The translations under genes and the position numbers were made by a program. The notes beneath the pieces are model-generated. The model was given only the letters and a program-made list of their open reading frames with translations. It searched no databases and was not told the origin of the DNA. 46,051 nucleotides of DNA from a virus (lineage: Duplodnaviria > Heunggongvirae > Uroviricota > Caudoviricetes), in the IMG/VR virus record IMGVR_UViG_3300010275_000216; one strand, written 5' to 3'. Of this stretch, positions 2,148-41,137 are shown in pieces (position 1 is the stretch's first letter; every line of letters starts with the position of its first letter).

Positions 2148-2723
2148 CTACGGTAGGGCTGGCCATTCAATATCCGGTGCAGTTGATGTATCAACACGGT
2201 TCAGCAACACCCGATACTTTTTCCAGGCTTCCAGCAACAAGGTTTCTTTCTCCGTTGCGATCTCCAGATCCACAGCATCCTGAAGCGGCGCTATATGCTC
2301 ACTGGCTACCTGCATCAGGCTGTTTTTTGTTTCTTCCGCCTCCCGGATCCGGAACAGTTTTTCTGCTTCCGTATCCTTCACCCAGGCTGTGCCGTTCCAC
2401 TTCTGAAACTCCCCTTCCGGGGATAACCAGGTGACATTTTCCGGTAATGAGCCGAGTTCAGAAATAAATAACGCGTCGCCGGAAGCCACGTCATAGACCG
2501 TTTTTCCCCGATGGTCTTCAACGAGATGCCACGATGCCTCATCACTGTTGAAAACAGCCACAAAGCCAGCCGGAATATCTGGCGGTGCAATATCGGTACT
2601 GTTTGCAGGCAGACCTGTATGAGGCGGAATATATGCGTCACCTTCACCAATAAATTCATTAGTTCCGGCCAGCAGGTTATAAATTTTTATGGTCCGTGCT
2701 TGTTCACTCATTCTGAATGCCAT
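2148..2723 (-). CDS. tfa: tail fibre assembly protein Tfa
   Basis: N-terminus [38 protein letters not shown] matches my recollection of lambda Tfa along most of its length; start overlaps stf stop. Confidence 0.9.
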
Positions 2724-18436: not shown

Positions 18437-20395
18437 TTACGCCGTACATTTCACCAGGCCGCGGTGATCAACTGGCGCAACACCAGCGTCAATACGCACT
18501 TTCGTTGTCACGCCATCCACACTGAAGCCCTCCATCTGATCAATATATGGCGTATCCACACCGTTGAGATAAGCCACTTCAATCGTATCGGAGCCTTTGG
18601 ACGCAGCCAGGTAGAAGGTGGTCTGGCTGTTATCATCAAGACGAGGCTCTGCAATAACGGTCGCAAAATCTTTCACCGGGTTAATAATACCGGCGTTAAT
18701 GTCAGCCCCCTTGACACTTGAGGAGCGAATGACCTGGTTAGCAACAGACTCCATCGCCGTCGGTACCAGTACGAACGCAGGACGAATATTCAGATGACGC
18801 TCACCCTCTTTCTGAACGCGCATCAACTGGCGGGCTTTATCCAGCGATGCCACGTCCATTGCCGCGCTCTCCAGTACGTTTGCATGTTTCGCTTTATCGA
18901 ACAGACTTACATTATCTGTGGAGATTTTCGGGTTAGACGTCAGAATGGCATAAACCAGATCGGCAATAGTGGATTTCGCCGCACGGCCCAGCTTCATCGG
19001 GACATCGGTCAGCATATTCAGATCATCATTGATAATGGCCTGACGGGTGATACTGAACAGCTCGCCATAGGTCGCCAGTGCAATAGTGGCCTGTTTATCT
19101 CCGGTGGTGACGTATTTATATTCTGCCCCTTCACGCACCTGACGCAGAGCACTGAAGCCCCCCATACCCACACGATGGGCAATTTTAAAATCAGACAACT
19201 GACCTTTCCGCGTCCACTGTTCATAGGTTTCAGGGGCATCTTCCCAGCCCTGCAGAATGGCTTTGTTCGCAACATCCAGCAGAATATTACCGAAGTCAGA
19301 CGTACTGTGTGTGAACGCCGCACCGACCATCTGCATCGGGTTATAACTGGAAACACCAATACCACGTTCAGTCAGTGACATACGGGCATATTCACGCAGG
19401 GTCATCCCGTTGTAGACATTATCACGTTCAGTTTTTTCAAACCCGGCGCGCGCCATCAGCGCCTGGCGGATCCCGTCCCCCACAAAATTACCGTTACCGG
19501 CATAAATATGAGCCGGGGTATTTTTATTGGATGGCGTGGACTCGCGCCCCATCTCGTTCAACAGCTTTTCGCGGGCCTGCTCCAGCGAACATTCAGGATC
19601 GGCAAGACACTGAGCCTGCAACGACTGATAACGCCCGCCAAACATGGCAAACAGATCATTAATACCGTTTACACGCGCTTTTTGCTCTGCCAGGACCTGC
19701 GCACGGATGCTGTTTTCATCCACCACGGGTGCTGCTGCCTGCACTGGCGTCCGGGAGGCTGCAGGTCCATCATCCTGTACGCGTGGAGCACTGTTGCGTG
19801 GCGGAGTAATCATATTTCGAATGGATTCCGGCATCTTTTTAAATTCCTCTGTACGTTTTGACTGAATACATGCCATTGCCTTAACGGCTGGTGTCACCTG
19901 ATCAGCAAATCCCTGTGCCAGACATTCGGCACCGGACATCCAGGTCTCATCCGCCAGCATGGCAGCAATTTCATCGGTGGTTTTCCCGGTTTTCTGTGCA
20001 TAAGCGGGTAACAGAACCGCCTCAACTTTATCGAGCAGGTCGGCATAGGTGCGCATGTCCTCCGCATCACCGCCCGTAAAGCCAAATGGTTTATGAATCA
20101 TCATGAAGGAGTTTTCCGGCATAATGACCGGGTTTCCCACCATCGCAATGACCGACGCCATTGACGCCGCCACACCGTCGACATAAACGGTAATGGACGC
20201 ACCATGTGTTTTCAGTGCATTAAAAATGGCGATGCCTTCAAAGACATCGCCACCCGGTGAATTAATATGGAGATTAATGTGGGTGATATCGCCCAGTGCA
20301 TTCAGATCACTGATAAACTGCTTCGCCGTAACACCCCAGAAACCAATCTCGTCATAAATATAAATATCCGCGTCACTCTGGTGACCTGCCTGCAT
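18437..20395 (-). CDS. prohead protease (ClpP/S14-like) fused to major capsid protein
   Basis: ClpP-like core HINSPGGDV...GVAASMAS in N-terminal third, large C-terminal capsid-like domain; ATG at 20395 is 13 nt after the portal stop, ORF-track start 20656 would overlap portal by about 250 nt. Confidence 0.8.
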   Translation of the reverse strand: MQAGHQSDADIYIYDEIGFWGVTAKQFISDLNALGDITHINLHINSPGGDVFEGIAIFNALKTHGASITVYVDGVAASMASVIAMVGNPVIMPENSFMMIHKPFGFTGGDAEDMRTYADLLDKVEAVLLPAYAQKTGKTTDEIAAMLADETWMSGAECLAQGFADQVTPAVKAMACIQSKRTEEFKKMPESIRNMITPPRNSAPRVQDDGPAASRTPVQAAAPVVDENSIRAQVLAEQKARVNGINDLFAMFGGRYQSLQAQCLADPECSLEQAREKLLNEMGRESTPSNKNTPAHIYAGNGNFVGDGIRQALMARAGFEKTERDNVYNGMTLREYARMSLTERGIGVSSYNPMQMVGAAFTHSTSDFGNILLDVANKAILQGWEDAPETYEQWTRKGQLSDFKIAHRVGMGGFSALRQVREGAEYKYVTTGDKQATIALATYGELFSITRQAIINDDLNMLTDVPMKLGRAAKSTIADLVYAILTSNPKISTDNVSLFDKAKHANVLESAAMDVASLDKARQLMRVQKEGERHLNIRPAFVLVPTAMESVANQVIRSSSVKGADINAGIINPVKDFATVIAEPRLDDNSQTTFYLAASKGSDTIEVAYLNGVDTPYIDQMEGFSVDGVTTKVRIDAGVAPVDHRGLVKCTA

Positions 20396-20408
20396 CCTGA
20401 ACCAGGAA

Positions 20409-21917
20409 TTATTCTTCGGACTGGTCGTCGGTGTGCTGCGGCTCCTGTCGTTTCGTTGCGGCACTGCTGCCTCCTTTATCACTGGCCGGATCGGTATCAA
20501 ATACCAGATCCAGCTTGCGGTTTTCATCAATTTCGGCCTTGCGCCGACGTTTGACATCATCCGGATTACGACCACCTGCACGTACCCAGTCTGATTCTGT
20601 CGCCGCTCCACCACGAATCTGAATTTTCCAGGCCTCAGCCTCCTTAACAGGGTCAATCCACGGCATCACCGGTCCGGAATACACCGCGGTATACAGTGAA
20701 GATCGGTCCAGATCGCGGGGTAGCCTGATAACACCGGATACCACAGCCTGTTTCAGCCAGGCACGGTACATCGGGCGGGTGACGGCACCAATAAACCAGT
20801 CCTGCAGGATCAGGTAGCCATCAGTAGATTCAACCAGCTCCTGACGCTGGGCGCTGTAAGTGCCGTTATAGTTGCGCGCTGTACTGGAAAAACTCAGACG
20901 ACTGCCCGCAGCCACGGCACGCAACTGACCATTACGAAAAGTTTCAAGGTTAGGATTGGGGCGATCCGACTTCACCATTCCGATTTCTTCGCCGGGTTTC
21001 AGATCGTCGTAAATAATGCCTGGCTGAATGGTAAGCTCGCGTTCATTCTCCTTGCTGTCATTACCATCCGTTTCATAGCTCTGTCCGTCGCCTTTCCGGA
21101 TGTACATCCCCAGAGCAGCGGCGATCCTTGCTGCAGTCAGCTCAGAATCTTCATACTCTTTCAGAGCACTGAGGCGGATCAGCACACCGGACAACAAAGA
21201 CGTCCCGCGCATCTGGTGCAGACGGCGAACAAATTTAAGATGCAGCATTCGCTCTGCATCCACTTCTTTGGTTTCCATCTGCCGCCCGGATACGGGACGG
21301 CTTTTATACACCAGATATTTTTCGGGACGCCCCCAGTCATCAACAAACACGCCCTGATTCAGCCTGTTGCTCTCATCACTGGTCATGGGAATAAAGTCCG
21401 GCTCGAGCGCCTCCAGCCAGAAATGAACACCGGCAGAAGGCGTCAGGCTGTTTATGCGCCCGGAAACCATCTGGGCAAACACCTCACCATCGCGCAGCCA
21501 GGTACGCAGCATCAGACGTTCCAGCATCGGACGGGTAAACTGCCCGGTGACCTCCGGACTGACAGACCATTCACTCCATCGGGTACGTATCTCCGCTGCC
21601 AGATCACGGGCAATGGCCCCATTGCGTAATACCGGATGTGGCTCGACAATAATCCCGTTTTTCCCCACCACCCGTTCTTCCAGCTTGTCAAATACACCAA
21701 TGACCAGATCGTGGTTGTTATCAAGGTAACGAGCCTGCTCACGTAACGACACGGCCCCGTACTGGCTTAACTGGTCGGCAGTTCGGTTCTCCCGTCGGGC
21801 TTTGTGTGTTCGCGTCGTTTTTACGGCCTCATAAGCCTGGATCACCGCACGGGAACGCAGCCTTGCCGCTTTCCATCCTGGTGAAAAAACGCCAATCACA
21901 TCATCAAGAATTGCCAT
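20409..21917 (-). CDS. portal protein
   Basis: About 500 aa, acidic C-terminus, position between W-like gene and protease/capsid; ATG at 21917 overlaps W stop. Confidence 0.8.
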   Translation of the reverse strand: MAILDDVIGVFSPGWKAARLRSRAVIQAYEAVKTTRTHKARRENRTADQLSQYGAVSLREQARYLDNNHDLVIGVFDKLEERVVGKNGIIVEPHPVLRNGAIARDLAAEIRTRWSEWSVSPEVTGQFTRPMLERLMLRTWLRDGEVFAQMVSGRINSLTPSAGVHFWLEALEPDFIPMTSDESNRLNQGVFVDDWGRPEKYLVYKSRPVSGRQMETKEVDAERMLHLKFVRRLHQMRGTSLLSGVLIRLSALKEYEDSELTAARIAAALGMYIRKGDGQSYETDGNDSKENERELTIQPGIIYDDLKPGEEIGMVKSDRPNPNLETFRNGQLRAVAAGSRLSFSSTARNYNGTYSAQRQELVESTDGYLILQDWFIGAVTRPMYRAWLKQAVVSGVIRLPRDLDRSSLYTAVYSGPVMPWIDPVKEAEAWKIQIRGGAATESDWVRAGGRNPDDVKRRRKAEIDENRKLDLVFDTDPASDKGGSSAATKRQEPQHTDDQSEE

Positions 21918-22129
21918 CAGAACCTCGCCAGCCGGTACCCGGGATGCCCCCGTCGTCGTGTAATCAGAGCCGCAAGGCGGCGCTCCCACTCCTGCCGCCC
22001 CTGCCGGATCTCAGATAAGTTTTCCATGGTCATCTGCTGACCATTAAAAGTGACGGATTTTCCGTCCAGCACCGCCATTTCAGCTTCCGTATAACGCTGA
22101 ATCATGGCTTCAATATCATTCTGATTCAT
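21917..22129 (-). CDS. W: head-tail connector / head completion protein, W-like
   Basis: C-terminus ...RRRGHPGY resembles lambda W ...RRRGPAGF; ATG overlaps terminase stop with GGAGG SD. Confidence 0.6.
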   Translation of the reverse strand: MNQNDIEAMIQRYTEAEMAVLDGKSVTFNGQQMTMENLSEIRQGRQEWERRLAALITRRRGHPGYRLARF

Positions 22130-24228
22130 AACCATCCTCCGGAAGTCAGCCAGGGGTTAACATCGTCAGTTACTGTTTTCTTCCGTTTTTGTTTTTTAAC
22201 AGGCGTGGGTACCGGTTCCGGTGAGGGTGACGGTTCGGTACTGTCCGGGACACACTCCAGCCAGGTTTCCCGGCTCGCCCACTCCGGTGCATCCGGCCAG
22301 CGGATCTTTTCGTATCCATGCAGAATGACCAGAGCCTCGGCATACACCATCAGGTCAAAAGCTTCGTTGGCACCGCGACCCGGCTTACTCCATTTCCCGT
22401 CACTGCTCCGCTCTTCATACGTCAGTTCGTCGTAAAACCAGCTCCCCAGCCAGTCAGGGAAATGCACATAGCCGGGACCTGGCGAGTCACGCCATAACGC
22501 GTTATTCACCCGGTCTTTCAGGGCATCCGTCTGAAGAAGCCAGAGCGGCACATCACCTGCGGCCTGCGCCCGTCGGCCCGTTCGTCCGGTGTTATCAGGG
22601 AATGTACGGGTGATCAGTTTTGCTCGCCGGATGCTGTCGCCCTTAAACAGGTAAATACGTTTACCAAGGCCATCACGACGGCAACGACGCCAGAATTTAT
22701 AGGCATTATCAGTGACCCCGTCTTCACCGCCGGAGTCCACCGCCATTGCCATCAGTCGCATTTGTTGAGAAGGGTCGGAGGCCAGCGGCCAGCTTTTATG
22801 AAAAACATCCGTCAGCAGGACATCCCAGTCTTCCGGATAGCTGGCCGGATCAATTCGCTGGCTCTCCCCGTCGCTGTCACCGCGCAATGACTGCGTGATG
22901 TTGTAACGATCAATAATCCAGCGTTCGCCACGGCTGCCATAGCCCGTTACCTGAACCACAAAACGGCGATGACGTCCCGCCTGCACATCCACTGTCGCCA
23001 CAAGGAAATTAACGCCATCCGGCACACTGCGGGAAGGAACTGGCTCTGCCCGCTGCTCAAGCAATTCACTTTTTCGTTGCTCCATGCTGGCGCGGGGAAG
23101 ATAAGGTAATCCCCAGTCGGTATTGATAACCGTCTTGAGTGTCTCTTCACTTCCGGTTGTCTCGTATTCCTGTTCTGCAGTAAGCAGTTTGTAAACGAGT
23201 TGCGAGAGTGTCTGATAAGCAGCTGCCGGACCCTCCATCCAGAATGACGCAATACGTGAACGCCGGGGATCACCATAACGACTGCCATCTGCATTGATGG
23301 ATTCACCATCCCGTAACCAGACCCCACGTCCGTTCAGCTCGCGTTTTTGTTCAGGCAAAATCCGTCCTGAACAGGAAGGACACTGAATATAAGCCGCCTC
23401 ACTTGCCAGCACAGGATCGGCAATATCACGGAAACCAGCAACCACATCGCCGCAGGGCTGAAAATACTCACCACAGTGTGGACAGGGCCAGTACCAGCGA
23501 CGGCGATCGCCACGGTTATAGAGCGACAGGATCCCCGTGGTTGGTGGAGCCTCATGCGGTGAAGTCCGTCGCCATTTCACATCCTTCACATCCCTGCCGG
23601 GGGAACTCTCCACCAGCGTCATACCACTGGACATAAATGTGGTGGTACGTTTTGAGGCAAGAGAGAAGGCATCCCCCTCACCATCAATATCTTCCGGAAA
23701 ACGGTCATAATCCGTCAGCGCCACGCATTTATAATCTGATGAAGACATGATATTGACTGACGGCCAGCCGATTTTCAGGTAGTTGCCAGCAAGGAATGTT
23801 CTGTCATAAACGTTGTTGTCATTTTTGTTCGGACTCAGGCGACTGACCACTTCCGGGCTGACGCGAAACGTTCTGGCGAGTCGTTTTTTGGAGTGTTCGC
23901 GGGCTTTTTCCTCCGTCATCTGAATGATCAGCATATCAGCAGGATCGCAAATCACGTTGTAAATCACCCAGCCGTCAATCAGGCCGATAGTCTTGCCGGT
24001 TCGTGCCGGGCCAACAAATATCACTGCGTCGTATTCACGCGAGGCCAGGCAGTTCATAGGCTCAATAACATACGGTGCCACCAGCGGATCCCACGGGACT
24101 GAGTTCCCTGCCCCCATGGGCACCCGCATATACTGAGCAACGGCATCAGCAACCCGCATTCGTCTCGGTGCGCGAAGGATATAACCTGAATCGGTTCGTG
24201 CTGCCTTTGCGGTTTCCTGATTCAGCAT
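22126..24228 (-). CDS. terminase large subunit (700 aa)
   Basis: Size, Walker A-like VGPARTGKT, Zn-finger-like CPHCGEY...CPSC, position downstream of small subunit and cos. Confidence 0.85.
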   Translation of the reverse strand: MLNQETAKAARTDSGYILRAPRRMRVADAVAQYMRVPMGAGNSVPWDPLVAPYVIEPMNCLASREYDAVIFVGPARTGKTIGLIDGWVIYNVICDPADMLIIQMTEEKAREHSKKRLARTFRVSPEVVSRLSPNKNDNNVYDRTFLAGNYLKIGWPSVNIMSSSDYKCVALTDYDRFPEDIDGEGDAFSLASKRTTTFMSSGMTLVESSPGRDVKDVKWRRTSPHEAPPTTGILSLYNRGDRRRWYWPCPHCGEYFQPCGDVVAGFRDIADPVLASEAAYIQCPSCSGRILPEQKRELNGRGVWLRDGESINADGSRYGDPRRSRIASFWMEGPAAAYQTLSQLVYKLLTAEQEYETTGSEETLKTVINTDWGLPYLPRASMEQRKSELLEQRAEPVPSRSVPDGVNFLVATVDVQAGRHRRFVVQVTGYGSRGERWIIDRYNITQSLRGDSDGESQRIDPASYPEDWDVLLTDVFHKSWPLASDPSQQMRLMAMAVDSGGEDGVTDNAYKFWRRCRRDGLGKRIYLFKGDSIRRAKLITRTFPDNTGRTGRRAQAAGDVPLWLLQTDALKDRVNNALWRDSPGPGYVHFPDWLGSWFYDELTYEERSSDGKWSKPGRGANEAFDLMVYAEALVILHGYEKIRWPDAPEWASRETWLECVPDSTEPSPSPEPVPTPVKKQKRKKTVTDDVNPWLTSGGWL

Positions 24229-24722
24229 TACTCCTCCTGCTGTAATTCCTCCTCATCATCCGCACCTGCTTCAGTCACCCGCAGGGCTATCTGATCGCGC
24301 AGATCATCAATAATGGACTGAACACGGCTCACAGCGGCAGGCTGCAGACCGCAGTCACGTTCAAGAATATCCGGTAATGTCTCCAGCACCTGCACGACCG
24401 CTTTTGCCCAGATGGCAAACTCCCGTCTGACATCACTGGCCGGAATGAGTTGTGCCGTTTCCTGTTCGAACTTAAGACGCTCACGTTCAGACTGATACCA
24501 GGCTTTGCGCTCATGTGCGTCCATTTCGCCTTCTGCAACCGGCGGTGGTAATGCCAGAAATGCCGACACAATATCAACCACCCGATAAAGCTTGAGGTTG
24601 CTTTCATGCCCCCCTGCAACGGGTAGATTTTGCAGCCTTGCCGCAGCAGTCTGGCGATGTACACCTGACAGTGCCGCCAATTGACTGATATTCAGCGTCA
24701 GATTTTTTAACTCTCGATCCAT
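24228..24722 (-). CDS. terminase small subunit (Nu1-like, N-terminal HTH)
   Basis: 164 aa, N-terminal ...NISQLAALSGVHRQTA HTH, acidic C-terminus; first gene after cos. Confidence 0.75.
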   Translation of the reverse strand: MDRELKNLTLNISQLAALSGVHRQTAAARLQNLPVAGGHESNLKLYRVVDIVSAFLALPPPVAEGEMDAHERKAWYQSERERLKFEQETAQLIPASDVRREFAIWAKAVVQVLETLPDILERDCGLQPAAVSRVQSIIDDLRDQIALRVTEAGADDEEELQQEE

Positions 24723-24889
24723 ACCCGCTCCAGAATGTTTTAAACATGCATCTTGCGAACGACTTTAGGCAAACGGTGTTAGTGATGAACAAAAAACAAT
24801 CAAAATCGACACCACAAAAATAAAAATACTGTAATATCAATCTATTACAGTAGTGGTGATGACGGATGAAATTTCAAAAACTAGCCTTT

Positions 24890-24915
24890 TTCCGCGACGC
24901 TCCCGCCCCGTGGCA
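24890..24915 (-). other. cos site: cosN-like 12-mer GGGCGGGAGCGT (minus strand, about 24897-24908) in lambda-like context ACG|GGGCGG......|CGCGG
   Basis: Minus-strand sequence CCACGGGGCGGGAGCGTCGCGGAAAAAGG aligns with my recollection of the lambda cos junction ACGGGGCGGCGACCTCGCGGGTTTT; about 175 nt upstream of terminase small subunit. Confidence 0.6.
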
Positions 24916-25088
24916 GGGGCCCCCACCGGGAGGACCCGACAGCCTGACAGCCGTGACGAGCATCTGATACAGCGCTTTACATAATGGCATAGGAATAATT
25001 CAGAAGGACATCACAGCATGCCCACACAAATTAGTGTGAGTGTCCTGTTTCTTCCTACGCACAGGACTGACGAGCATGAGGGGAAAAT

Positions 25089-25256
25089 ATGCGAACCATA
25101 AATGCCTCATCTTCAGCAATGCAGCCGGCATCCGAACAGGACGATATTGTAAATTCACCTAATTACGAGGACATTGCAGTAGTTGAATTGCAGCTCTGTA
25201 TTAGCCTGACAGTGACAGAATGCGATATTGACTCTGTCACAGGTGAAATAGTTTGA
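25089..25256 (+). CDS. small acidic 55-aa ORF (MRTINASSSAMQPASEQDDIVNSPNYEDIAVVELQLCISLTVTECDIDSVTGEIV)
   Basis: Strong SD GAGGGGAAAAT before ATG; below ORF-track cutoff; function unknown. Confidence 0.3.
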   Translation: MRTINASSSAMQPASEQDDIVNSPNYEDIAVVELQLCISLTVTECDIDSVTGEIV

Positions 25257-26985: not shown

Positions 26986-27192
26986 CTTCATTTTCACTTT
27001 TTTAAATCCAACGACAGACGGCTGGCATTTAAGTATTGTGAAATATTATCAAATGTAATCATCATTGATTTACAAAAGATACATTTTGCCCCGAAAGGAT
27101 TCATGTCAGAAACATCAAAAGATGATGTTCTATACTGGGAACCATGACAACACGGGCATCTAAAGTGAATATGGTTTGTAATATTGTCTACC

Positions 27193-27405
27193 TCAAAGCG
27201 CCACTACATGAACAGCGGCAGGACCTTTAGGTCCGTTCTCAATACCAAATTCAACTTCCTGATTCTCAGTTAATGTTTTGAAATCGTTGCTCTGAATTGC
27301 TGAGAAATGGACAAACACATCTTTGCTGCCATCTTTCGGCGTGATGAAACCAAAACCTTTTTCAGGGTTAAACCATTTCACTAAACCAGTCATTTTGTTA
27401 GACAT
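27193..27405 (-). CDS. cspI: cold shock protein, CspA family (70 aa), CspI-like
   Basis: [23 protein letters not shown]...[12 protein letters not shown] motifs; long upstream leader as in cold-shock genes. Confidence 0.8.
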
Positions 27406-27765
27406 AATTATTACCTTTTGAAGAAATTAGCCCTTGGGCAGAATGGTCCGAAAAAAAATATCAGAGAGAAAAACCAACAAGGAAATCCCAAGAGGTACAA
27501 ATAATAAAATTATAACAATGACTGCTTCAGATAAATTTGTAACAAACCAGAACACCATTAACGCATGATTAACCACCCATAGCAAGGATTACTTTTGTAA
27601 AGAAAAATACAGCAATGAAAGAATAGCTTTATTTATTAATAAAACGTGTCATTCTGATTAAGACCTTTTCTTACCCTTAAGATTTCAGGAATTTTGGCTC
27701 ATGGAAGAGTCCTTTTTATTTAAATTTTACATTCCGCGATGTAAATGTTCCGATTTAATATTACC

Positions 27766-29791: not shown

Positions 29792-30074
29792 TTGAGATTG
29801 TGGTGCTTTTTGTGGGAGTCATCCACTTACGCACTTTGTTTTGCGATGCCAGCAGTTAGCTTCTGCTGTGAAACTATTCATGCAGCAAACCTGCACTTCA
29901 CCACAATGGTTAGCATACTTTTCCTGATTAAGATTTTGCCAAATATGCTGGCCATTGTTTCATGTATTGGACCTCCTTACTTTTTATTAAAGAGATCCAA
30001 TATTCACTACTCTGTCCGTATCTCTACTCAGGCATCAGCCTTCTTCGTTATCGTATACAGACGAGCGATGAATT

Positions 30075-30290
30075 TTAATCAGTAATGATGACATTTACTG
30101 CTGCAGGACCTTTAGCACCACTCTCTATAGAGAAGGTAACCTTTTGACCTTCAAATAAGGTTCGATAATTATCATTCTGAATCGCAGAAAAATGCACAAA
30201 CACATCTTTACTACCATCAACAGGAGAAATAAAGCCGAAACCTTTATCAGCGTTAAACCATTTTACTAAACCAGTCATTTTATTTGACAT
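30075..30290 (-). CDS. cspB: cold shock protein CspB-like (71 aa)
   Basis: [23 protein letters not shown]...; divergent from cspF as in Qin. Confidence 0.8.
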
Positions 30291-30590
30291 TCTACATTCC
30301 TTAACTTGAGCCTTTCGGCATAAATGGTTTGCATAACAGAAACGACTTCGTACTTAATTGGAGAGACTCAAAGAAGGAATAAGTGAATAACACCTGAAAT
30401 GAGAACTGCTTTAGTAAACTACTTCGTATATCGTCTGTTCTTCAAACCGACGCAATCATTAACGCATAGTTGAACATATGAAGCAATGTTTATTTTAGAC
30501 ATCCAGCCATCTTCAACCCCATCAAAAAACTATAGCTTTCTTCAGGAACGTGTGTATAGTGCGCCAAGTTATCAGTATTAAGGAATTTTT

Positions 30591-35548: not shown

Positions 35549-35704
35549 TTACTCCTCAGGTTCGTAAGCTGTGAAGACAGCGACCTCCGTCTGGCCGGTT
35601 CGGATTCGTACCTCGCAGAGGTCTTTCCTCGTTACCAGTGCCGTCACTATGACGGTTAAACAAATGACGATCAGGGCGATTAACATCGCCTTTTGCTGCT
35701 TCAT
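35549..35704 (-). CDS. hokD: Hok-family type I toxin (51 aa), HokD/RelF-like
   Basis: MKQQKAMLIALIVICLTVIVTALVTRKDLCEVRIRTGQTEVAVFTAYEPEE; AGGAG SD. Confidence 0.85.
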   Translation of the reverse strand: MKQQKAMLIALIVICLTVIVTALVTRKDLCEVRIRTGQTEVAVFTAYEPEE

Positions 35705-35900
35705 AGCCTGCTTCTCCTTGCCTTTCGGCACGTAAGAGGCTAACCTACATGTGTCTAGCATGAAATTGGCCTCAGATTAATGTTAAGCGTCTTGCAGGAC
35801 GCGTAATGTTAACTGGGGCTTTTCTCTATCTGCCGTTGGTGTTCATGCCCGAGGCAGATAGCCTCAAGCACCCGCAGCCATTCTACTTAACTACCGTTAC
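35705..35900. promoter_or_regulatory. hok leader region: in-frame 19-codon upstream extension (mok-like) and candidate antisense Sok-type RNA on plus strand
   Basis: ORF-track 70-aa form starts at ATG 35761; plus-strand promoter-like TTGCCT-17-TAACCT at about 35717-35745 oriented antisense to hok; inference only. Confidence 0.3.
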
Positions 35901-41079: not shown

Positions 41080-41137
41080 TTTCTGGTGACGTTTGGCGGT
41101 ATCAGTTTTACTCCGTGACTGCTCTGCCGCCGTTTTT
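41080..41137 (+). ncRNA. dicF: DicF small RNA (ftsZ-targeting sRNA of the dicB operon) with terminator U-tract
   Basis: TTTCTGGTGACGTTTGGCGGTATCAGTTTTACTCCGTGACTGCTCTGCCGCCGTTTTT matches the DicF sequence as I recall it over 52 of 53 nt; correct operon position between ydfBC and dicB. Confidence 0.8.

What the first reader, a model, noticed from the sequence alone, without database searches (positions are those of the whole stretch)
24723..25090. Lambda-like cos region with a diverged cosN 12-mer
The sequence GGGCGGGAGCGT, flanked by ACG and CGCGG exactly as at the lambda cos junction, lies about 175 nt upstream of the small terminase gene. It differs at 4 of 12 positions from the lambda overhang, so packaging specificity may differ.
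Basis: partly seen in the sequence, partly recalled or inferred. Interest (0 to 1): 0.35.

Follow-up and report, generated by a model that had tools for sequence, protein, structure and literature searches.

The report
Common lambda-like prophage cos site
This is the DNA-packaging cut site (cos) of a very common lambda-like E. coli prophage. Its sticky-end sequence differs from lambda's at four bases, but the same site already marks the genome ends in published phage records, so it is real and ordinary.

Summary
GGGCGGGAGCGT lies on the minus strand at 24908..24897, flanked by ACG and CGCGG, 175 nt upstream of a small-terminase gene. It differs from lambda's overhang at positions 7, 8, 9 and 11.

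It sits in a complete lambda-type cos:
- the cosQ heptamer GGGTCCT lies 29 nt upstream (30 nt in lambda);
- the CG pairs at both nick sites are conserved;
- cosB has an IHF consensus between inverted R-like repeats;
- a distant Nu1 relative (Pfam DUF1441, phrog_141) and a gpA-family large terminase follow.

GenBank records of phages cdtI and Tritos start with this 12-mer and end at ...CCACG. The whole cos-terminase module is 98.6-99.9% identical to cultured phages (phi458, mEp460, Ayreon). The region occurs in 2109 of 5426 complete E. coli genomes.

Variation in bases 7-12 of lambda-like cohesive ends is documented (Feiss 2015; Vahanian 2017). Gifsy-1's end, GGGCGGCAGCGT, differs from this one by a single base.

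Packaging specificity almost certainly differs from lambda. The reason is the different cosB and small terminase, not the 12-mer.

I found no direct end-mapping for this clade, so the 12-nt overhang remains an inference. Verdict: already known, low interest.

The parts
24931..24937 (-). cosQ heptamer GGGTCCT, the packaging-termination signal in lambda
   Evidence: It is the only GGGTCCT in the window. Its first G is 29 nt before the predicted top-strand nick, against 30 nt in lambda. It is invariant in all relatives aligned.
24895..24910 (-). cosN: the 12-mer GGGCGGGAGCGT (24908..24897) plus the CG pair on each side. Predicted nicks lie between 24909|24908 (top, packaging strand) and 24897|24896 (bottom strand).
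   Evidence: Shown. Records of phages Tritos and cdtI begin at the first G and end at ...CCACG. The Hafnia phage yong2 record begins at the CGCGG that follows its 12-mer. Eight of the 16 bp are two-fold symmetric, against 10 of 16 in lambda.
24723..24896 (-). cosB: the terminase small-subunit and IHF binding region between cosN and the small-terminase start codon
   Evidence: It aligns over its full length with phi458 and 569R4 and, more distantly, with PhiR40_1, CP-1639 and 1720a-02. Its architecture parallels lambda's R3-I1-R2-R1.
24853..24863 (-). [quoted passage not shown]
   Evidence: The position matches lambda R3 (bp 50-65) and N15 R3 (bp 48-60) (PMC9026076). It is the first member of the forward/reverse/forward triple found by script. 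The core 7-mer recurs at R1.
24835..24847 (+). IHF consensus TATCAATCTATTA (bp 62-74), the counterpart of lambda I1
   Evidence: It is one of only two exact WATCAANNNNTTR matches in the 46-kb window. A match with at most one mismatch lies at bp 61-65, in the same orientation, in PhiR40_1, CP-1639, VT1-Sakai, Fels-1, mEp043 and cdtI. Among 47 related cosB sequences the variable positions fall in the NNNN part.
24827..24852 (.). Perfect 10-bp inverted repeat TACTGTAATA / TATTACAGTA around the IHF site
   Evidence: Found. It is kept in the closest relatives (phi458, 569R4) but not in PhiR40_1, Fels-1 or Gifsy-2, so it is probably specific to this subtype or incidental.
24805..24815 (-). R2-like site GTGGTGTCGAT, inverted relative to R3 and R1 (core GTGTCGA, bp 97-103; reverse complement TCGACAC)
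   Evidence: Shown. In relatives the homologous position is the exact reverse complement of R1: Gifsy-2 GTGTCGAA/TTCGACAC, PhiR40_1 ATGTCGAA/TTCGACAT, Fels-1 GATGATGA/TCATCATC.
24778..24790 (-). R1-like site GTTCATCACTAAC (core TCATCAC, bp 121-127)
   Evidence: Shown. It is preceded by the spacer TGTTTTTTGTTC, which is conserved across the family.
24228..24722 (-). Terminase small subunit, 164 aa (Pfam DUF1441, phrog_141)
   Evidence: Pfam DUF1441, E 3e-41. phrog_141 'terminase small subunit', E 7e-74, with a cross-hit to lambda Nu1's family phrog_57, E 8e-10. hhalign against lambda and Gifsy-1 Nu1 is colinear, E 3e-4, probability 40%. It is 100% identical to the small terminases of phages phi458, Ayreon and 569R4.
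22126..24228 (-). Terminase large subunit, 700 aa, gpA family (ATPase plus endonuclease that nicks cosN)
   Evidence: Pfam GpA_ATPase, E 2e-71, and GpA_nuclease, E 1e-85. It is 25% identical to lambda gpA over 623 aa and 88% identical to the cdtI large terminase.
21917..22135 (-). gpW-like head-tail adaptor, the next gene of the packaging and head module
   Evidence: phrog_118 'head-tail adaptor', E 1e-37.

Best explanation
This is the functional cos site of a complete lambdoid prophage that carries a Gifsy-2/mEp460-type head and packaging module. The proposed mechanism is as follows. The small terminase (24722..24228) binds the R-like repeats of cosB. IHF bends the DNA at the consensus site between R3 and the inverted R2. 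This anchors the gpA-family large terminase on cosN. The large terminase then nicks after ...CACG on the packaging strand and after ...CCGCG on the other strand. That gives virion DNA with 12-nt 5' cohesive ends, GGGCGGGAGCGT and its complement. Packaging runs leftward in window coordinates through the terminase, head and tail genes. It ends at the next cos, where cosQ (GGGTCCT) is needed for the terminal cut. Shown here: the sequence elements, their spacing, their conservation and the gene families. Inferred by homology with lambda: protein binding, the exact nick positions and the direction of packaging. [quoted passage not shown] They change which DNA ends can anneal, not which DNA is recognised. 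Recognition specificity resides in cosB and the small terminase, and both are unlike lambda's.
For: 1. Anatomy. cosQ, cosN and cosB are colinear with lambda, with spacing preserved: 29 vs 30 nt from cosQ to the nick, and 175 vs 179 nt from the overhang to the small-terminase ATG. The bases around both nick sites are identical to lambda's: ACG^GGGC on top and CCGCG^A on the bottom strand.
2. Chance is excluded. The lambda-derived frame is expected 0.03 times. cosQ is unique in the window. The IHF consensus is one of only two in 46 kb.
3. Genome ends. The linear Tritos record and the cdtI record begin at GGGCGGGAGCGTCGCGG and end at ...CCACG. The yong2 record starts at the CGCGG just after its 12-mer. 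The assemblies of Ayreon and mEp460_4F5, phages with this same module, break within 0-5 nt of cosN.
4. Function in living phages. The region 21900-24915 is 98.6-99.9% identical to cultured phages phi458, mEp460, mEp460_4F5, ev081 and Ayreon.
5. cosB. A script that recovers lambda's R3/R2/R1 (bp 53, 111, 155) finds forward/reverse/forward triples at matching positions in Fels-1, Gifsy-2, VT1-Sakai and the window. The repeat sequence differs between phages but stays self-consistent within each. The IHF site is conserved in position at bp 61-65.
6. Enzymes. The large terminase belongs to the gpA family. The small terminase is a remote Nu1 relative.
7. Literature. Lambda-like cohesive ends vary at bp 7-12 without effect on cleavage (PMC4669245). 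Gifsy-1's end, read here as GGGCGGCAGCGT, differs from this one only at bp 7.
8. Expert practice. The authors of the LLS paper, citing Vahanian et al. 2017 and a personal communication from M. Feiss, infer a 12-nt 5' overhang at the homologous site of LLS and mEp213, which have the same terminase family (PMC12315714; record feature).
Against: I found no experimental end-mapping for this exact cos or its close relatives. The LLS overhang is explicitly an inference. I could not read how the cdtI and Tritos record starts were chosen: Asakura 2007 is not held, and the Tritos paper describes no end determination. Overhang length is not fixed in the wider family. The cyanophage Cr-LKS3, whose small terminase is 40% identical, has experimentally determined 9-nt ends (PMC9303873). 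The Stx-phage group has only 10-11 nt between the conserved ACG and CGCGG flanks. The window's own R-like repeats are weak, with 8 mismatches in 30 compared positions; their assignment leans on position and on clearer relatives. The small terminase is not a Pfam Phage_Nu1 member and shows no BLASTP similarity to Nu1. Whether this particular prophage can be induced is unknown.
Confidence: 0.85

Rival explanations
1. It is the cos site, but the nicks are not where lambda homology places them. The overhang would then be shorter or shifted, for example 9-11 nt, rather than exactly GGGCGGGAGCGT.
For: Cr-LKS3, a distant phage of the same small-terminase family, has measured 9-nt 5' ends GGGCTCGCG (PMC9303873). 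Stx-phage relatives have ACACG-GGGCGGGCGG(G)-CGCGG, that is 10-11 nt between the conserved flanks, while the cosQ-to-CGCGG length stays at 53-54 nt. The large terminase is only 25% identical to lambda gpA.
Against: In the window both nick contexts (ACG^G and CCGCG^A) and the 12-nt spacing are identical to lambda. Three independent records start or end exactly at these two positions. The authors of the LLS paper infer 12 nt for the sister site of mEp213 and LLS.
Confidence: 0.1
2. The site is an intact-looking relic. The prophage is defective or never induced, so cos is not used in this host.
For: The region between lysis and cos carries Qin/DLP12-like cargo genes (cspI, ynfN, gnsB, ydfO-like), as in the cryptic K-12 prophages. 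The window also carries DicF and hok/sok. Nothing here tests inducibility.
Against: Unlike K-12 Qin, the window has uninterrupted small and large terminase, portal, protease-capsid, tail and integrase-sized ORFs. The packaging module is 98.6-99.9% identical to plaque-forming phages. No disruption of cosQ, cosN or cosB is visible.
Confidence: 0.15
3. The phage packages by a headful (pac) mechanism, and the lambda-like 12-mer is a coincidence or a vestige.
For: None specific.
Against: The large terminase has both gpA domains, the family of 5'-cos phages. The chance expectation for the frame is 0.03.
Confidence: 0.02

Closest known systems
Bacteriophage lambda cos (cosQ-cosN-cosB with Nu1 and gpA)
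   Same: The order and spacing of cosQ (GGGTCCT), cosN and cosB match. Bases 1-6, 10 and 12 of the overhang and the CG pairs at both nicks are identical. An IHF site lies between an R3-like site and an inverted R2-like site, followed by R1. The small-terminase gene starts about 180 nt downstream and is followed by a gpA-family large terminase.
   Different: Overhang positions 7, 8, 9 and 11 differ. The cosB sequence is unrelated, with R core TCATCAC/TCGACAC against lambda's CGTTTCC. The small terminase is DUF1441/phrog_141 with no BLASTP similarity to Nu1. The large terminase is only 25% identical. The head module has a fused protease-capsid gene rather than lambda C/Nu3/E.
Salmonella phage Gifsy-1 cosN (GGGCGGCAGCGT)
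   Same: The right half of the overhang, AGCGT, is the same; the two 12-mers differ only at bp 7. Gifsy-1 is cited by Feiss as a natural lambda-like cosN variant at bp 8, 9 and 11 (PMC4669245).
   Different: Gifsy-1 has a true Nu1/gp1-type small terminase and lambda/21-like head genes. Its small terminase is absent from the homologue list of the window protein.
Phages cdtI (AB285204) and Tritos (OV696610)
   Same: The 12-mer is identical, and so are the next ~21 nt (through ...GGCTAGTTTTT). The cosQ side is near-identical. The large terminase is 88% identical. Both records start and end at the predicted nicks.
   Different: From about bp 34 onward cosB is different (no matching R-like repeats) apart from the conserved IHF site, and the small terminase is only about 42% identical, with recognition-helix region HRDTVKKR against HRQTAAAR. 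This is probably a different packaging specificity with the same cohesive ends.
Phages mEp460, phi458, Ayreon, mEp460_4F5 and ev081
   Same: The cos, small terminase, large terminase and W are 98.6-99.9% identical. The small terminase is 99.4-100% identical. This is effectively the same packaging module.
   Different: None of these records annotates cos or starts exactly at it. The Ayreon authors only predicted that a cos lies upstream of the small terminase (PMC5764929).
Phages LLS and mEp213/mEp043 (overhang inferred as GGGCGGCGCGCT)
   Same: They share the terminase family (small terminase 57-58% identical), the cosQ...ACG|12-mer|CGCGG frame, and a Gifsy-2-like head module.
   Different: The right half of the overhang differs. 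Their cosB is shorter, with the small-terminase start at bp 130.

Membership tests
[quoted passage not shown] | Virion DNA carries 12-base 5' single-stranded extensions made by staggered nicks | not testable with these tools
   There is only indirect support. Records of Tritos, cdtI and yong2 start or end at the predicted nicks. The overhang of the sister phage LLS is itself an inference.
[quoted passage not shown] | The cohesive-end sequence is similar to lambda's, with the left half (bp 1-6) conserved and differences confined to bp 7-12 | tested here: met
   Eight of 12 bases are identical. Bp 1-6 are identical, and the differences are at 7, 8, 9 and 11.
[quoted passage not shown] | Conserved CG dinucleotides flank both nick positions, and cosN has partial two-fold symmetry | tested here: met
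   CG|GGGCGGGAGCGT|CG has 8 of 16 bp symmetric, against 10 of 16 in lambda and Gifsy-1.
[quoted passage not shown] | The 7-bp cosQ GGGTCCT lies about 30 bp upstream of the top-strand nick | tested here: met
   It is at 24931-24937, 29 nt from the nick, and is the only copy in the window.
[quoted passage not shown] | A complex cosB in the order R3 - IHF site - inverted R2 - R1, with R3 near bp 48-65 | tested here: inconclusive
   The IHF consensus is exact and conserved in position. The R-like triple at bp 50/91/121 is weak in the window (8 of 30 mismatches) but clear at the same positions in Fels-1, Gifsy-2 and VT1-Sakai. Protein binding was not tested.
[quoted passage not shown] | A gpA-family large terminase is encoded just downstream | tested here: met
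   PF05876, E 2e-71, and PF20454, E 1e-85.
Nu1 small-terminase family (Pfam Phage_Nu1; lambda, 21, N15, Gifsy-1) | [quoted passage not shown] | tested here: not met
   Pfam assigns DUF1441 only and BLASTP against Nu1 finds nothing. Homology is remote: phrog_57 cross-hit E 8e-10, and a colinear hhalign match with E 3e-4 and probability 40%. No PDB sequence hit was found. The AlphaFold model was too poor to test the fold.
mEp460/cdtI/Gifsy-2-type packaging module (DUF1441 small terminase + gpA large terminase + fused protease-capsid) | Near-identity of cos, small terminase and large terminase to characterised members | tested here: met
   DNA identity to phi458, mEp460, Ayreon and ev081 is 98.6-99.9%. 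The small terminase is 100% identical to that of phi458 and Ayreon. A 739-aa protease-capsid-sized ORF lies at 18437-20656.

The most novel reading that the evidence does not exclude
The right half of cosN may not be drifting neutrally. The AGCGT-type overhang would then define a separate cohesive-end compatibility group, shared by several cosB/small-terminase specificities (mEp460-type, cdtI-type, and satellite-like elements such as the one in L017). Lambda-type ends would be kept from annealing with it. That would shape which co-resident prophages and satellites can exchange or hijack packaging.
Probability: 0.07. Interest if true: 0.35.

Novelty: already known. Interest (0 to 1): 0.1.

Why it matters
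The value is mainly for annotation. RefSeq labels the small terminase only as 'DUF1441 family protein' and marks no cos, although this site occurs in about 39% of complete E. coli genomes. Knowing the cos position fixes the virion genome ends. It also fixes the direction of packaging, which matters for any cos-driven transduction of flanking DNA. Finally, it tells which phages or satellites share cohesive ends. It does not open a new question: natural variation in the right half of lambda-like cohesive ends, and its lack of effect on cleavage, are already described.

Tried and rejected
- **Text search.** A full-text search for the 12-mer found only an unrelated mammalian paper.
- **Papers not held.** Asakura 2007 on phage cdtI, Casjens and Gilcrease 2009 and Vahanian 2017 could not be read. 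How the cdtI ends were fixed, and whether this exact 12-mer is tabulated, remain unverified.
- **Tritos paper.** It describes no end determination for Tritos.
- **Small terminase against Nu1.** BLASTP found nothing. A family profile against PDB sequences gave no significant hit.
- **Structure.** The single-sequence AlphaFold2 model had mean pLDDT 66, and the N-terminal DNA-binding part was below 50-67. I judged it too poor and ran no fold search.
- **Footprinting.** Among 47 window-like cosB sequences from IMG/VR the sequences were too similar to separate sites from spacers, apart from variation inside the NNNN of the IHF site.
- **The 10-bp palindrome at 24827-24852.** I considered it as a small-terminase operator. 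It is not conserved outside the closest relatives, so I did not adopt it.
- **Direct repeats.** The repeat finder reported none in cosB. The R-like sites emerged only from a mismatch-tolerant search for forward/reverse/forward triples.

Full report
**What is there.** The minus strand around the finding reads ...GGGTCCTCCCGGTGGGGGCCCCTGCCACG GGGCGGGAGCGT CGCGGAAAAAGGCTAG.... The 12-mer occupies 24908..24897. ACG lies at 24911..24909 and CGCGG at 24896..24892. The 12-mer is unique in the window. Its last base is 175 nt from the ATG (24722) of a 164-aa ORF. That ORF overlaps by one base a 700-aa ORF (24228..22126), and a 72-aa ORF follows. Pfam assigns the 700-aa protein both domains of lambda gpA, the ATPase (E 2e-71) and the endonuclease (E 1e-85). 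It assigns the 164-aa protein DUF1441, not Phage_Nu1. PHROGs calls the 164-aa protein a terminase small subunit (phrog_141, E 7e-74) and the 72-aa protein a head-tail adaptor.

**Not chance.** The frame taken from lambda, ACGGGGCGG-N6-CGCGG, matches once, against 0.03 expected even with one mismatch allowed. GGGTCCT, lambda's cosQ heptamer, occurs once in 46 kb (3.5 expected). It lies 29 nt before the predicted nick, against 30 nt in lambda. An exact IHF consensus, one of only two in the window, lies inside the 175-nt interval.

**Comparison with lambda.** An alignment of the junctions of lambda, the window, Tritos and cdtI shows four things:
- cosQ is conserved.
- The top-strand nick context ACG^GGGC is identical.
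- The bottom-strand context CCGCG^A is identical.
- The differences are confined to overhang positions 7, 8, 9 and 11.

Two-fold symmetry of the 16-bp cosN is 8 of 16 bp, against 10 of 16 in lambda.

**Related phage records.** Two records begin at base 1 with GGGCGGGAGCGTCGCGGAAAAAGGCTAGTTTTT and end with ...GGGTCCT(C/T)CCGGTGGGG...CTGCCACG. They are the linear record of phage Tritos (OV696610) and the record of phage cdtI (AB285204). Their ends are therefore the two predicted nick sites.
- Hafnia phage yong2, of the same small-terminase family, starts at the CGCGG that follows its 12-mer.
- The mEp460_4F5 record starts 5 nt left of the 12-mer and lacks 3 nt of cosN.
- The Ayreon record has a chimeric join exactly at the right edge of cosN.

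The last two look like assembly breaks at physical DNA ends.

The whole module (21900-24915) is 98.6-99.9% identical to cultured phages phi458, mEp460, mEp460_4F5, ev081 and Ayreon. The small terminase is 100% identical to that of phi458, Ayreon and 569R4. The 301-bp cos region matches 2109 of 5426 complete E. coli genomes, with at least 80% coverage in 1236.

**Variation of the 12-mer.** I scanned IMG/VR for GGGTCCT-N28-48-CGCGGAAAAAGG, leaving cosN free. The cosQ-to-CGCGG distance was almost always the same, at 53 nt. GGGCGGGAGCGT was the commonest 12-mer. Variants included ...GCGG...GCAT and GGGCGGCAGCGG. Among relatives:
- Fels-1 has GGGCGGCAGCGG.
- mEp043 and LLS have GGGCGGCGCGCT.
- Stx-phage relatives (VT1-Sakai, CP-1639, 1720a-02) have only 10-11 nt between the conserved flanks.
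- Gifsy-1, which has a true Nu1-type small terminase, has GGGCGGCAGCGT, one base from the window's 12-mer.

**cosB.** The region aligns over its full length with phi458 and 569R4. It aligns at about 75-77% identity with PhiR40_1, CP-1639 and 1720a-02. A script that looks for forward/reverse/forward 10-mer triples gave these positions:

| Phage | R3 (bp) | R2 (bp) | R1 (bp) |
|---|---|---|---|
| lambda | 53 | 111 | 155 |
| Fels-1 | 47 | 93 | 119 |
| Gifsy-2 | 52 | 96 | 123 |
| VT1-Sakai | 47 | 98 | 125 |
| window (weaker) | 50 | 91 | 121 |

- The repeat cores differ between phages but agree within each. Fels-1 has TCATCATC. Gifsy-2 has TCGACACTGA. PhiR40_1 has the pair ATGTCGAA/TTCGACAT.
- The window has TCATCAC at bp 47-53 and bp 121-127, and the inverted GTGTCGA at bp 97-103.
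- An IHF consensus with at most one mismatch lies at bp 61-65, in the same orientation, in the window, PhiR40_1, CP-1639, VT1-Sakai, Fels-1, mEp043 and even cdtI.
- This is lambda's R3-I1-R2-R1 layout with R3 at the lambda/N15 position (PMC9026076).
- The R-site assignment in the window itself is the weakest link and is an inference.

**The small terminase.** BLASTP against Nu1 finds nothing. Three results point to remote homology:
- The protein cross-hits Nu1's PHROG (phrog_57, E 8e-10).
- Nu1 cross-hits phrog_141 (E 6e-8).
- A profile-profile comparison is colinear over 142 columns (E 3e-4, probability 40%). It aligns LNISQLAALSGVHRQTAAARL with Nu1's VNKKQLADIFGASIRTIQNWQ, which is the helix-turn-helix region.

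The HRQT..R segment is nearly invariant in the family, while cdtI has HRDTVKKR. That fits a shared R core and a divergent cdtI cosB. I could not confirm the fold: there was no PDB sequence hit and the single-sequence model was of low confidence.

**What is known.** Feiss et al. 2015 (PMC4669245) define lambda-like phages by 12-base 5' extensions similar to lambda's. They make four relevant points:
- Differences at bp 7-12 are common (N15: 9 and 12; Gifsy-1: 8, 9 and 11).
- Right-half changes do not measurably affect cos cleavage.
- cosQ and the CG pairs at the nicks are conserved.
- Lambda and 21 share cosN and cosQ yet differ more than 1000-fold in specificity, through cosB and the small-terminase recognition helix.

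A dedicated survey exists (Vahanian et al. 2017, Virology 509:140) but is not held here. The authors of the LLS paper, citing Vahanian et al. 2017 and a personal communication from M. Feiss, infer a 12-nt 5' overhang for LLS and mEp213, which belong to the same terminase family as the window (PMC12315714). The LLS GenBank record annotates it. That overhang is an inference, not a measurement. The only measured ends I found in this small-terminase family are the 9-nt 5' ends of cyanophage Cr-LKS3 (PMC9303873). Overhang length is therefore not guaranteed across the family.

**Verdict.** The finding is a correct identification of a cos site that is common, belongs to a described class, and is already used as the origin of published phage genomes. 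Specificity very probably differs from lambda, but through cosB and the small terminase. The 12-mer sets cohesive-end compatibility. What remains unproven is the exact nick positions and whether this prophage is active.

Noticed in passing
L017 1-11983 (IMGVR_UViG_2574179916_000005): Two cos sites of this family lie in the same orientation, 10.67 kb apart. The first is followed by a DUF1441 small terminase and a large terminase cut to its ATPase half (331 aa). Next come a tyrosine integrase, an AAA_25 protein and a ClpP-protease/capsid fusion. Then comes a second cos (12-mer GGGCGGGAGCGG) with a different DUF1441 small terminase. It looks like an integrase-bearing element, either a capsid-encoding satellite or a second prophage, inserted in a prophage large-terminase gene.
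   Followed up: partly
L139 (VT1-Sakai), L011 (CP-1639), L010 (1720a-02): Stx-phage relatives read ACACG-GGGCGGGCGG(G)-CGCGG, with only 10-11 nt between the conserved flanks. The cosQ-to-CGCGG length is kept at 53-54 nt. Their overhang length or nick register may differ from 12 nt.
   Followed up: partly
window bp 1-33 of cos (24908-24876) against cdtI and Tritos: There is a mosaic joint inside cos. cosQ, cosN and the first ~21 nt after the 12-mer are shared with cdtI and Tritos. After that, cosB and the small terminase switch to a different type. The large terminase is about 100% identical from residue ~380 onward but more diverged before that. The same cohesive ends are thus combined with different recognition modules.
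   Followed up: partly
MF807953.1 44500-44590 (L141) and LR595868.1 1-30 (L133): The Ayreon record joins a fragment of its own small-terminase gene directly to ...CGTGGAAAAAGG, and this is annotated as a 'putative late gene regulator'. The mEp460_4F5 record lacks 3 nt of cosN. Both are probably assembly artefacts at the cohesive ends.
   Followed up: partly
window 24938-24952: The 8-mer GGCTGTC(A/G) occurs twice in tandem immediately upstream of cosQ; Tritos has three copies.
   Followed up: no
window 25131-25242: About 110 nt upstream of cos is 86% identical to lambda 47979-48090, an unannotated stretch near lambda's right end. It is also found in HK629, HK630 and DE3. It overlaps a 55-aa ORF on the plus strand (25089-25256) that has no Pfam hit.
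   Followed up: no
window 41081-41132 (+), 35699-35873 (-), 27166-27551 (-), 30028-30451 (-), 2182-2380 (-): Rfam finds a DicF sRNA, a sok antitoxin RNA, two cspA-type thermoregulator leaders (one before the cspI-like gene at 27405..27193) and an IS009 RNA. ARAGORN finds no tRNA genes. The cargo resembles the K-12 Qin prophage, but here within a full-length prophage.
   Followed up: no
L144 (NZ_CP070902.1 2327049-2334349): RefSeq annotates the small terminase only as 'DUF1441 family protein'. It marks no cos and calls the W-like adaptor 'hypothetical protein'.
   Followed up: no
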